This document shows, one piece after another, positions 1,111 to 8,684 of a DNA stretch of 64,000 bases. The notes below the pieces were generated by a model. The model was not told the origin of the DNA. It saw only the letters and a list, made by a program, of their open reading frames with translations, and did no database searches. The DNA comes from the human T2T-CHM13v2.0 reference genome, Homo sapiens. The DNA is taken from assembly GCF_009914755.1 (NCBI RefSeq), contig NC_060926.1; one strand, 5' to 3'. A program made the translations under genes and the position numbers. Numbering within the stretch: the stretch's first letter is position 1; the number at the start of each line of letters is the position of its first letter.

Positions 1111-4100
1111 CCAGGCTGGAGTGCAATGGTGCAAACTTGGCTAGCTGCAGCCTCCACCTCCTGTGTTCAAGTGATCCTCCTGCGTTGGCCTCCCGAGTAG
1201 CTGGGATGAGAGATGAGTGCCACCACGCCCATCTATTTTTTTTGTATATTTAGTGGAGACGTTGTTTCACCATGTTGGCCAGGCTGGTGTTTTTTTTCAT
1301 TTTCTTTTTTTTTCTGAGTGGGAGTCTCACTCTGTTGCCCAGGCTGGAGTGCAGTGGTGCAATCTTTGTTCGCTGCAACCTCCACCTCCCGGGTTCAAGC
1401 GATCCTCCTGCCTGGGCCTCCCGAGTAGCTGGGATTACATTCCTGTGCTACCATGCTCAGCTAATTTCTTTGTGTATTTAGTACTGACGGGGTTTCACCA
1501 TGTTGGCCAAGGTGCTCTTTTTTTTTCTTTTTTCTGAGATGGAGTCTCGCTCCATTGCCCTGGTTGGAGTTCTTCTTTTTTTTCAGATGGAGTGTCACTC
1601 TGTTGTCCAGGGTTCAGTGCAGTGGTGCAATCATGGCTGGCTGCAGCCTCTAACTCCCGGGTTCAAGCGATCCTCCTGCCTGGGCCTCCCGAGTAGCTGG
1701 GATTACAATCGTGTGCCACCACGCTCAGCTAATTTCTTTGTATATTTAGTACTGATGGGGTTTCGACAGGCTGGTCTTTTTTTTTTTTTTTTTTTTGAGA
1801 TGGAGTCTTGCTATATTGCCCAGGCTGGAGTGCTTTTTTTTCAGATGGAATCTCACTTTCTTGCCCAGGCTGGAGTGCAGTGGTGCAATCTTGGTTCGCT
1901 GCAACCTCCACCTCCCGGGTTCAAGCGATCCTCCTGCCTGGGCCTCCCGAGTAGCTGGGATTACAGGCGTGTGCCACCACGCCTAGCTAATTTTTTTGCA
2001 TATTTAGTAGAGACGTGGTTTCACCATGTCGGACAGGCTGCTCTTTTTTCCTTTTTTTTTTTTTTTTTTGAGATGGAGTCTTGCTATATTGCCCAGGCTG
2101 GAGTGCTTTTTTTTTTCAGATGGAGTCTCACTTTGTTGCACAGGCCGGAGTGCAGTGGTGCAGTCTTGGCTCGCTGCAGCCTCCACCTCCCAGGTTCAAG
2201 CGATCCTCCTGCCTGGGCCTCTCGAGTAGCTGGGATTACAGGCTTGTGCCACCACGCCCAGCTAATTTTTTTGTGTATTTAGTAGAGACGGGGTTTCACC
2301 ATGTCGGCCAACCTGGTCTTTTTTTTTTTTTTTTTTTTTTTTTCTGAGATGGAGTCTCGCTCTGTTGACCAGACTGGAGTGCTTCTTTTTTTTCAGATGG
2401 ACTCTCACTCTGTTGCCCAGGCCAGAGTGCAGTGGTGCAATCTTGGCTCGCTGCAGCCTCCACCTCCCAGGTTCAAGTGATCCTCCTGCCTGGGCCTCCC
2501 CAGTAGCTGGGATTAGAGGCCTGTGCCACCACGTCCAGCTAATTTTTTTTGTATATTTAGTAGAGACGGGATTTCACCATGTTGGCCAACCTGGTCTTTT
2601 TTTTTTTTTTTTTTTTTCTGAGATGGAGTCTCGCTCTGTTGCCCAGTCTGGAGTGCTTCTTTTTTTTCAGATGGACTCTTACTCTGTTGCCCAGAGCAGA
2701 GTGCAGTGGTGCAATCTTGGCTCACTGTAGCCTCCAACTCCCAGGTTCAAGCGATCCTCCTGTCTGGGACTCCCGAGTAGCTGGGATTACATTCGTGTGC
2801 CATGACGCCCAGCTAATTTCTTTGTATATTTAGTAGAGACGGGGTTTCACCATGTTGGGCAGGCTGTTTTTTGTTGTTGTTGTTGTTGTTGTTGTTGTTT
2901 TGAGATGGAGTCTCGCCCTGTTGCCCAGGCTGGAGTGCAGTGGTGCAATCTTGGCTCGCTGCAGCCTCCACCTCCCGGGTTCAAGGGATCCTCCTACCTG
3001 GGCCTCCCGAGTAGCTGGGATTATATTCGTGTGCCACCATGCTCAGCTAATTTCTTTGTATATTTAGTATTGATGGGTTTTCACCATGTTGGCCAGGCTG
3101 CTCTTTTTTTTTTTTTTTTTTTTTTTTCTGAGATTGAATCTCACCCTGTTGCCCAGGCAGGCGTTCAGAGGTGCAATCTTGGTTTGCTGCAACCTCCACC
3201 TCCCGGGTTCAAGCATTCCTCCAGCCTGGGCCTACCAAGTAGCTGGGATTACAGGCGTGTGCCATGACGCCCAGCTAATTTTTTTGTATATTTAGTAGAG
3301 ACGGGGTTTCACCATGTTGGCAAGGCTGGTCTTTCTTTTTTTTTTTTTTTTCTGAGATGGAGTCTAGCTCTATTGCCCAGGTTGGAGTGCTTTTTTTTCA
3401 TATAGAGTCTCACTCTGTTGCCCAGGATAGAGCGCAGTGGTGCAATCTTGGCTCCGCTGCAGCCTCTACCTCCCGGGTTCAAGCGATCCTCCTTCCTGGG
3501 CCTCCCGAGTAGCTGGGATTACAGGCATGTGCCACCACGCCCAGCTAATATTTTTGTATATTTAGTAGAGATGGGGTTTCACCATGTCGGCCAGCTGGTC
3601 TTTTTTTTTTTCGAGTTGGAGTCTCGCTATATTGCCCGGGCTGGAATGCTTGTTTTTTTTCAGGTGGAGTCTCACATTTTGCCCAGGGTGGAGTGCAGTG
3701 GTGCAATCCTGGCTGGCTGCAGCCTCCACCTCCCAGGTTCAAGCAATCCTCCTGCCTGGGCCTCCCGAGTAGCTGGGATTACAGGTGTGTGTCACCACGC
3801 CCAGCTAATTATTTTGTATATTTAGTAGAGATGGGGTTTCACCATGTTGGCCAACCTGTTCTTTTTTTTTTTTTTTTTTTTTTTTTTTCTGAGATGGAGT
3901 GTCGCTCTGTTGCCCAGGCTGAAGTGCTGTGGTACAATCTTGGCTCACTGCAGCCTCCACCTCCCGGGATCAAGTGATCCTCTTGTCTGGGCCTCCCAAG
4001 TAGCGGGGATTACAGGCGTGTAGCAATACGCCCAGCAATTTTTTTGTATATTTAGTAGAGACGGGGTTTCACCATGTTGCCCAGGCTGGTCTTTTTTTTT

Positions 4101-7100: not shown

Positions 7101-8684
7101 TTCACCATGTTGGCCAGGCTGGTCTTTTTTTTTTTTTTTTTTTTTTTTTTTTTTTTTTTTTTTTTTTTTGAGATGGAATATCACTCTATTGCCCTGGCTG
7201 GAGTTCTTCTTTTTTTTCATATAGAGTCTAATTCTGTTATCCAGGGTGGAGTGCAGTGGTGCAATCTTGGCTCGCTGCCGCCTCCACCTCCCAGGTTCAA
7301 GCGATCCTCCTTCCTGGGCCTCCCGAGCAGCTGGGATCACAGGCATGTGCCACCACATCCAGGTAATTTTTTTTATATTTAGTAGAGACGGGGTTTCACC
7401 ATGTTGACCAGGCTGGTCTTTTTTTTTTTTTTTCCTGAGATGGAGTCTCGCCCTGTTGCCCAGGCTGGAGTGCAGTGGTACAATCTTGGTTCACGGCAAC
7501 CACCCCCTCCCGGGTTCAAGTGATCATCCTGCCTGGGCCTCCCGAGTACCTGGTATTACAGGTGTGTGCCACCAAACCCAGCTATTTTTTTTTTTTTTTT
7601 GAGATGTAGTATCACTCTGACACCACCGTGGAGTACAGTGGCGCCATCTCGGCTCACTGCAACCTCCGCTTCCCAGGTTCAAGCAATTCTCCTGCCTCAG
7701 CCTCCCGAGTAGCAGGGATTACAGGCATGTGCCACCACACCCAGCTAATTTTTCTATTTTTAGTAGAGACGGGGTTTCACCATGTTGGTCAGGCTGGTCT
7801 CAATCTCGTGACCTCGTGATCCACCCACCTTGGCCTCCCAAGGTGCTGGGATTACAGGCATGAGCCACCACGCCCGGCCCTATTTTTTTTGTATATTTAG
7901 AATAGACGGGGTTTCACCATGTTGGCCAGGCTGGTGTTTTTTTTTTTTTTTTTTTTTTTTTGAGATGGAGTCTCGCTCTATTGGCCAGGCTGGAATGCTT
8001 CTGTTTTTTCAGATGGAGTCTCACTGTGTTGCCCAGGCTGGAGTGCAGTGGTGCAATCTTGGCTCGCTGCAGCCTCCACCTCCCTGATTCAAGTGATCCT
8101 CCTGCCTGGGCCTCCCGAGTAGCTGGGATTACAGGTGTGTGCCACCACCCCCAGCTAATTTTTCTGTATAGTTTGTAGAGATGGGGTTTCACCGTGTTGG
8201 CCAGGCTGGTCTATTTTATTTTATTTTTTCTGAGATGGAGTCTCGCCCTGTTGCCCAGGCTGGAGTGCAGTGGTGCAATCTTGGCTCGCTGTAGCCTCCA
8301 CCCCCAGGGTTCAAGCGATCCTCCTGTCTGGGCCTCCCGAGTAGCTGGGATTACATTCATGTGCCACCACGCCCAGCTAATTTCTTTTTATATTTAGTAG
8401 AGATGGGGTTTCACCGTGTTGGCCAGGCTGGCCTTTTTTTTTTTCTTTTTCTGAGATTGAGTCTCACCCTGTTGCCCAGGCTGGAATGAGGTGGTGCAAT
8501 CTTGGTTCGCTTCAACCTCCACCTCCCTGGTTAAAGCGATCCTCCTGCCTGGGCCTCCCGAGTAGCTGGGATTACTGGCATGTGCCACCACGCCTAGATA
8601 ATTTTTTATACATTTAGTAGAGACGGGGTTTCATCATGTTGGCCAGGCTGTTTTTTTTTTTATTTTTTTTGAGATGGAGTCTCG
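1111..8684 (-). repeat. Tandem array of about 30 5'-truncated Alu monomers (Alu-derived satellite, units about 220-275 bp)
   Basis: Repeated unit polyT-gagatggagtctc...gggtttcaccatgttggccaggctggtc. I counted about 30 end motifs. Units share non-consensus changes (cctgggcctcc, gtatatttag, gatcctcctg). Confidence 0.93.
7592..7879 (-). mobile_element. Full-length AluS (Sg/Sc-like) inserted into one array monomer
   Basis: Has both arms and the consensus cctcagcctcc; has gacctcgtgatcc (2-bp deletion type); flanked by ctattttttt at 7582 and 7880. Confidence 0.85.

What the first reader, a model, noticed from the sequence alone, without database searches (positions are those of the whole stretch)
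1111..8684. An Alu turned satellite: about 30 head-to-tail promoterless Alu monomers
Seen: every unit has the same orientation and the same truncation point (...ggccaggctggtc then polyT), with no unique spacers or TSDs. Units share private changes (cctgggcctcc for cctcagcctcc, gtatatttag for gtatttttag). Knowledge: the missing ~85 nt of the left arm carry the Pol III A box and most of the B box. Inference: one truncated Alu was amplified at the DNA level (unequal exchange or rolling circle), not by repeated retrotransposition. Standard repeat annotation would report it as dozens of separate Alus and hide the array.
Basis: partly seen in the sequence, partly recalled or inferred. Interest (0 to 1): 0.78.

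Follow-up and report, generated by a model that had tools for sequence, protein, structure and literature searches.

The report
Alu-born satellite from one nested insertion
Thirty head-to-tail copies of one shortened Alu jumping-gene fragment form a small satellite near the chromosome 2 centromere, with 14 sister arrays elsewhere; it likely began when one Alu jumped into another and uneven recombination then copied the overlap, a rare view of how a mobile element becomes satellite DNA, with no known function.

Summary
Real. Window 1108-8689 holds 30 same-strand Alu monomers (about 200 nt plus tail, all lacking the first ~82 nt), 12 extra ~40-nt 3'-end subunits, and one later full-length Alu with a TSD. 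It sits inside a (GGCT)n satellite. The monomers descend from one CpG-decayed genomic copy: at 8 of 15 CpG sites they carry only one decay product, and they form one clade. Growth was stepwise (five-monomer periodicity), not one rolling-circle burst. The genome holds 15 such arrays (171 monomers; chr2, 15, 22), including 8 tandem array+GGCT units at chr2:90.84-90.91 Mb; the chr2 and chr22 copies share both ends but keep 30, 24, 10 or 5 monomers. The cut point is a recurrent Alu-into-Alu insertion site (23 unrelated loci against 1 and 1 for two control positions; inner TSDs at 9 of 13 dimer loci read). So retrotransposition likely made the seed dimer and unequal exchange amplified it. An X/Y dimer near 770 kb carries the closest outside relative. 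Monomers are 86% identical: an old, unhomogenised SINE-derived satellite. No description found in ten searches; key supplements were unseen.

The parts
1..1105 (.). (GGCT)n / TGGC(T) simple satellite, left flank; continues at least 4 kb before the window
   Evidence: TRF (L045 is all GGCT)
1108..8689 (-). Alu-derived tandem array: 30 monomers of Alu ~83-282 plus tail, Alu sense on the - strand. Monomer starts on +: 1106, 1314, 1584, 1842, 2117, 2394, 2668, 2901, 3128, 3400, 3661, 3889, 4107, 4331, 4605, 4823, 5041, 5311, 5537, 5761, 5989, 6256, 6467, 6693, 6922, 7219, 7435, 8010, 8230, 8451
1534..7998 (-). 12 short (~40 nt) duplicates of the Alu 3' end, each followed by a short T run and a monomer usually starting cagatgg: at 1534, 1796, 2069, 2344, 2618, 3352, 3613, ~4561, 5264, 6205, 7169, 7961
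   Evidence: the copy at ~4561 was missed by the HMM and read in the gap
7435..7935 (-). monomer 27, split at its A-rich linker by a later insertion (7435-7597 and about 7880-7935)
7600..7879 (-). full-length ordinary AluS-like element inserted by retrotransposition; TSD ctattttttt at about 7582 and 7880; carries none of the 5 array diagnostics; present in all 12 chr2 arrays
8671..8689 (-). terminal monomer piece (positions 1-20) joined to the GGCT satellite; the left junction resumes near position 21
8690..11497 (.). (GGCT)n satellite, right flank, ending in an AT-rich repeat shared (98.5% over 455 nt) with the distal end of the chr2:90.84 Mb cluster

Best explanation
This is a tandem array of 30 copies of one truncated, CpG-decayed Alu that likely began when an Alu retrotransposed into an older Alu about 82 nt from its start and was then likely multiplied by repeated unequal exchange. 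Shown: one founder; stepwise, partly five-monomer block growth; later loss of interior monomers in sister arrays; the same junction at many unrelated loci, with TSDs. Inferred: CpG decay in the older Alu made an L1-endonuclease-like site (TCTT/GA), and the insertion left two ~200-nt direct repeats about 225 nt apart with only a poly(A) between them. Misaligned crossover between them duplicated the unit 'Alu 83-282 + tail', which lacks the A box and most of the B box and so would not retrotranspose. A second event added the 40-nt 3'-end subunit. The array then became joined to (GGCT)n satellite, took one ordinary Alu insertion, and was spread by pericentromeric segmental duplication (chr2 x12, chr15 x2, chr22 x1), most recently as a ~7-kb array+GGCT macrosatellite of 8 units. 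Age of the expansion is roughly 15-35 My (inferred). No function is implied; it behaves as a neutral, eroding satellite that also offers recombination substrate.
For: One founder: 51 of 51 array rows form one clade, 93/82; 41 of 41 form one clade among 124 rows, SH-aLRT 91. At 8 of 15 CpG sites the 30 monomers show only TG or only CA (e.g. 27/0, 0/25, 29/0), while 84 ordinary Alus show both (e.g. 24/23). Stepwise growth: 409 shared derived non-CpG variants against star mean 165, max 223; lag-5 excess, p = 0.007 corrected over 15 lags. Unequal exchange: 87.4-Mb array 24 monomers, ten arrays of 10, chr22 5, with the same two ends; one 10-mer unit is a 4/5 chimera, 98%/98% by halves. Seed: the junction ggccaggctggtc+T12 occurs 36 times, 13 in arrays and 23 elsewhere, against 1 and 1 for two control Alu 13-mers + T12. 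Of 13 dimer loci read, 9 show a full Alu nested with an 11-15-nt TSD (8 at this site, 1 a few nt along), 3 show the bare dimer inside one outer TSD, 1 is unclear; 8 of the 9 have TT after the TSD. No dispersed subfamily: 35 of 38 and 44 of 59 diagnostic matches are in arrays, and the dispersed hits of the two searches do not coincide, except the X/Y locus.
Against: No array keeps the 5' remnant of the host Alu or an inner TSD, so the seed event is inferred from look-alike loci. The 13 dimer loci were chosen because they matched a dimer query. Only two control positions were counted, and the dominant published self-insertion hotspot is position 133 (PMC2836564, passages). The clade is not starred (93/82; 91). 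Monomers average only 86% identity, with no neighbour effect at lag 1, so there is no sign of ongoing homogenisation and 'satellite' means a relic. The clocks disagree: non-CpG divergence 7.0% is like AluS (6.6%), whereas the CpG split implies a later expansion.
Confidence: 0.72

Rival explanations
1. Same DNA-level amplification, but the seed was a randomly 5'-truncated Alu landing behind another Alu's tail, or a plain tandem duplication of an Alu segment, not a nested insertion at position ~83.
For: Arrays lack the host 5' remnant and inner TSD. Three dimer loci have one outer TSD and no remnant, which tandem insertion could also give.
Against: The cut matches to the base the junction at 8 nested insertions with TSDs and 23 non-array loci, against 1 and 1 for controls. 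A random truncation would hit this base about 1 time in 200.
Confidence: 0.17
2. One burst: rolling-circle replication of a one-monomer circle, or template-jumping reverse transcription, laid down all copies at once.
For: Mean identity is nearly flat with distance, 85-88%. The array opens and closes at adjacent monomer positions 20/21, like an integrated circle.
Against: Nested sub-lineages and two unit types; 409 shared variants against at most 223 under a star; lag-5 periodicity. Later gene conversion could add sharing after a burst, so a circle step is not excluded.
Confidence: 0.08
3. Repeated independent retrotransposition of Alus, or of a small private subfamily, into one hot spot.
For: The junction is a recurrent insertion site, and one real insertion with a TSD is present.
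Against: Fixed one-directional CpG decays, one clade, promoter part absent from all monomers, no dispersed subfamily.
Confidence: 0.02
4. Assembly artefact.
For: Long T runs in a repeat-rich pericentromere.
Against: No two window monomers exceed 95% identity, and independent paralogs match monomer for monomer at 97-100%.
Confidence: 0.01

Closest known systems
SINE-derived satellites (sSat) of squamate reptiles (PMC10702118; passages read)
   Same: Head-to-tail repeats of part of a SINE, imperfectly homogenised, attributed to unequal recombination.
   Different: Here the SINE is a primate Alu, the unit keeps the poly(A) tail and ~70% of the element, and the seed junction is traceable. The authors say they had not met such satellites in mammals, though they had not specifically checked.
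Alu-derived minisatellites and tandem repeats (Ahmed and Liang 2012, PMC3389668; passages and section 3.4 read)
   Same: Local tandem duplication of Alu sequence. Their 136 cases of a ~89-bp partial Alu beside a full Alu look like the other half of the nested insertions seen here.
   Different: Their set needed at least 95% unit identity and averages 2.3-2.4 copies; this array (86%, 30 copies, 225-272-nt units) would fail the filter.
T2T composite repeats and AluSx-WaluSat (Hoyt et al., bioRxiv 10.1101/2021.07.12.451456; passages read)
   Same: TE plus simple repeat units in tandem macrosatellites, spread by segmental duplication; the 8-unit array+GGCT block fits this pattern.
   Different: In WaluSat the amplified 64-mer lies beside the Alu; here the Alu itself is the monomer. 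No passage seen names this array. Their new 'AluJb fragment' entry and Table S2 were not visible and could overlap.
HSat1B / DYZ2 (described in bioRxiv 10.1101/2021.07.12.452052; passages read)
   Same: Human satellite whose unit contains an Alu fragment.
   Different: There the Alu fragment is one part of an AT-rich composite, almost all on Y; here units are pure Alu.
Alu self-insertion hotspots (Levy et al., PMC2836564; passages read)
   Same: Sense-oriented Alu-into-Alu insertion at a fixed position.
   Different: Their hotspot is position 133, which matches the inserted Alu in monomer 27; the passages seen do not mention position ~83.

Membership tests
SINE-derived satellite | Head-to-tail units homologous to part of a SINE, without unique spacers | tested here: met
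SINE-derived satellite | Units descend from one local founder, not from separate insertions | tested here: met
SINE-derived satellite | Copy number changes by unequal exchange | tested here: met
   30/24/10/5 monomers with shared ends and a chimeric unit
Classical homogenised satellite | Ongoing concerted evolution (high within-array identity, neighbours most alike) | tested here: not met
   mean 86.2%, maximum 95.1%, no lag-1 excess
Cluster of independent Alu insertions | Each unit has its own TSD, mixed subfamilies and mixed CpG decay | tested here: not met
   only 1 of 31 Alu-sized units has a TSD; decay is one-directional at 8 sites
Composite macrosatellite (Hoyt definition) | Tandem unit of three or more repeat types | tested here: inconclusive
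   chr2:90.84-90.91 has 8 tandem units of monomer array + inserted Alu + GGCT; whether that counts as three types depends on naming; the window itself has one unit
Named Dfam Alu subfamily (AluJb, AluSz6 etc.) | Match to subfamily diagnostics | not testable with these tools
   No Dfam here; the clade falls between a J-like and an S/Y-like group (labels recalled)
Hoyt 'AluJb fragment' entry | Identity with the deposited consensus | not testable with these tools
   bioRxiv supplements closed; journal version not held

The most novel reading that the evidence does not exclude
The first whole-Alu satellite family in humans with its birth still readable: CpG decay creates a secondary insertion site at Alu position ~83 that repeatedly makes 'satellite seeds', and the dimer near X/Y 770-790 kb (its first unit has 5 of 5 diagnostics and is sister to all 41 monomers tested) is the surviving parent locus. 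The family then fused with (GGCT)n, acts as a segmental-duplication junction, and is still changing copy number as a ~7-kb macrosatellite next to the IGK region.
Probability: 0.3. Interest if true: 0.72.

Novelty: new variant of a known kind. Interest (0 to 1): 0.52.

Why it matters
TE-to-satellite conversion is widely assumed but its first step is rarely visible. Here the likely seed structure (nested Alu dimers at the same base), the expanded array, its contracted copies and a recent second-level amplification (copies 99.8-99.96% identical) sit in one genome, so the path can be tested in ape assemblies. Practically, about 171 monomers would be counted as separate old Alu insertions, and the 8-unit block on 2p11 is a candidate copy-number variant. 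There is no evidence of a cellular function.

Tried and rejected
Rfam found nothing in the window. chr15 as birthplace: rejected; its unique flank is a 96.7% copy of an interstitial chr22:31.52 Mb segment whose edge cuts into a monomer. chr14:17.22 Mb as a sister array: rejected; it is an independent two-Alu dimer without the diagnostics. A dispersed Alu subfamily: rejected. The X dimer as a twin-primed retrocopy of the array: rejected; the adjacent inverted Alu lacks the diagnostics. GGCT satellite lodged inside one ordinary Alu on chr22: the distal end does join an ordinary Alu near position 21, but the proximal end joins non-Alu DNA, so unsupported. GGCT satellite born from a monomer variant: the 11-mer CTTGGCTGGCT occurs in 1 of 41 monomers, 0 of 84 ordinary Alus and 106 times in the satellite, but the junctions are not at that position; left as a lead. 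Ten literature searches found no description of this array. Horvath 2005 on 2p11 and the journal version of Hoyt were not held. The outer satellite ends at chr15, chr2:87.4 Mb and left of the window were not reached.

Full report
Anatomy. Window 1108-8689 is an unbroken run of Alu sequence, Alu sense on the - strand, between two (GGCT)n blocks (1-1105 and 8690-11497). An HMM built from nine window monomers finds 30 monomers of about 200 nt. Each lacks the first ~82 nt of Alu; that part occurs in the array only within one inserted element. From recalled Alu anatomy the missing part holds the A box and most of the B box. All gaps between units are T-rich tails.

One founder. Against 84 ordinary Alus from the window and fetched loci, the monomers share G58 (22 of 30 against 3 of 84), C90 (30 against 4), G100 and G101 (27 and 28 against 4 and 5) and A162 (27 against 2); some of the 84 were fetched because they carried a motif, so the background is overstated. 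In a 94-row tree all 51 array rows form one branch (93/82), between a J-like and an S/Y-like group (labels recalled), and the inserted Alu falls with the latter. In a 124-row quick tree 41 of 41 monomers form one branch, SH-aLRT 91 (hits under 170 nt among the ordinary Alus, and near-identical paralogs, were left out). Neither support value is starred. The sharpest evidence is CpG decay: at 8 of 15 CpG-prone pairs the 30 monomers show only TG or only CA (21/0, 0/19, 27/0, 27/0, 0/25, 28/0, 0/24, 29/0, 0/26 for the nine low-CG pairs; the second still has 6 CG), while ordinary Alus show both products at every pair. The founder was thus an already decayed genomic copy, not a source gene. Exact genome-wide patterns find no dispersed subfamily: 44 of 50, 35 of 38 and 44 of 59 matches lie in arrays, and only one outside locus recurs in all three.

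How it grew. Monomers average 86.2% identity, maximum 95.1%, with no neighbour effect, so the array is old and not being homogenised. Growth was stepwise: monomers share 409 derived non-CpG variants pairwise, against a mean of 165 and a maximum of 223 in 1000 star simulations, and sharing peaks at a lag of five monomers (p = 0.007 over 15 lags; lag 11, p = 0.075). The star model ignores mutation hot spots and later conversion, so it lowers, but does not exclude, an early circle step.

Family. A DNA search (40 of 12,953 candidates scored) and exact patterns give 15 arrays: this one (30 monomers), chr2:87.41 Mb (24), 89.76 and 89.94 Mb (10 each), eight at 90.84-90.91 Mb (10 each), chr15:18.00 and 19.56 Mb (6 each plus a fragment), and chr22:17.24 Mb (5): 171 monomers (contig-to-chromosome names other than chr2 inferred from numbering and length). 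The 13 chr2 and chr22 arrays share the left junction, and the 12 copies delimited share the right one; they differ inside. The 10-mers match window monomers 1-3, a 4/5 chimera (98%/98% by halves), 6, an unmatched unit and 27-30, which is what unequal exchange leaves. At 90.84-90.91 Mb array and GGCT alternate with a period near 7 kb; five of the copies compared are 99.8-99.96% identical, a recent second-level amplification. On chr15 the array is cut by the edge of a 96.7%-identical copy of chr22:31.52 Mb, so it lies at a duplication junction.

Where the cut came from. The monomer junction (ggccaggctggtc then T12) occurs 36 times in the genome: 13 in arrays, 23 elsewhere. Two other Alu 13-mers followed by T12 occur once each. 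I read 13 non-array loci that matched a dimer query (a biased pick; 6 of them are among the 23). Nine are a full Alu nested in an older Alu with an 11-15-nt TSD and the host's 5' remnant behind it (8 at this base, 1 a few nt along); three are the bare dimer inside one outer TSD; one is unclear. In 8 of the 9 the TSD is followed by TT, the CpG-decayed form, giving TCTT/GA, near the recalled L1 endonuclease target TTTT/AA. Such an insertion leaves two 200-nt direct repeats separated only by a tail, and unequal crossover between them yields exactly this monomer. This step is inferred: no array keeps the remnant or TSD.

A possible parent. At about 770 kb on contig 23, with a twin at 789 kb on contig 24 (X/Y pseudoautosomal by inference; only the first was fetched), two truncated units stand in tandem. 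The first has 5 of 5 diagnostics (ordinary Alus: none above 3) and is sister to all 41 monomers, SH-aLRT 92. The second ends at the same base and shares A162 and the longer linker but groups with ordinary Alus. It may be the birthplace or an early ectopic offshoot; the human sequence alone cannot tell.

Age (inferred). Non-CpG divergence from the array's own majority is 7.0 +/- 2.3%, against 6.6% for 53 S-like, 4.2% for 13 Y-like and 9.2% for 9 S-like Alus of this window (sorting motifs recalled). The inserted Alu is S-like and 7.2% diverged. CpG loss since expansion (40%) is less than before it (8 of 15), pointing later. With recalled subfamily ages this gives roughly 15-35 My.

Comparison with the known. 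SINE-derived satellites are described in squamates, and those authors had not met them in mammals, without checking specifically (PMC10702118, passages). Human Alu-derived tandem repeats are known but average 2-3 copies (PMC3389668, passages and section 3.4; review PMC9659126, passages). T2T papers describe composites, WaluSat and HSat1B, and no passage I saw names this array. The published Alu self-insertion hotspot is position 133 (PMC2836564, passages). PMC2566985 (passages) gives the 2p11/15q11/22q11 duplication background only. Ten searches found no description. The library lacks most subscription papers; Horvath 2005 was not held, and Hoyt's supplements, with an 'AluJb fragment' entry that could be this monomer, were closed.

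Verdict. It works like a SINE-derived satellite and meets the tested features except ongoing homogenisation. New variant of a known kind; interest 0.52, since the mechanism is unusually legible but no function is indicated.

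Noticed in passing
L010-L016 (G000:C2:90,843,000-90,912,999): Eight tandem units of 10-monomer Alu array + (GGCT)n, period about 6.8-7.8 kb with one 12.6-kb gap; five of the copies compared are 99.8-99.96% identical. Candidate copy-number-variable macrosatellite.
   Followed up: partly
L023 2899-3328 as reverse-complemented (G000:C23 about 769.7-770.1 kb; twin on C24 about 789 kb): Dimer of two Alus cut at the array's junction; the first is sister to all array monomers. 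Possible parent locus.
   Followed up: partly
L022, L025, L027: Alu dimers inside one outer TSD, with no host 5' remnant; in L022 and L025 the full Alu looks chimeric (S-like 5' part, Y-like rest; diagnostics recalled), as if the new copy's 5' end was resolved by homology with the host.
   Followed up: partly
L019 4109-4115 against L043: A chr22:31.52 Mb duplicon (96.7% over 1.6 kb) ends inside an array monomer on chr15, with a few inserted bases that mirror the adjacent Alu linker.
   Followed up: partly
window 20532-21477: Six tandem copies of a 159-nt unit (86%); it looks like an L1 3' fragment (recalled, not tested): a second TE-derived tandem array in the window.
   Followed up: no
window 1108 and 8689; L021 about 8990: The array opens and closes at adjacent monomer positions (20/21), as if the GGCT block were lodged in one monomer; on chr22 the far end of the GGCT block also joins an ordinary Alu near that position.
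   Followed up: partly
window 45090-50919: Long degenerate CAGGG-type repeat; the RefSeq pseudogene LOC107985797 (45009-46473) lies on it and may be a low-complexity match.
   Followed up: no
window 41187-44069 and 54247-54741: A degenerate (TCATT/CATCT)n block, and a GC-rich 46/18/26-nt repeat set resembling telomere-associated TAR1 (recalled) at a pericentromeric site.
   Followed up: no
window 23615-24255 and 44257-44657: Other nested Alu clusters, including a TRF period-174 pair at 23887-24245.
   Followed up: no
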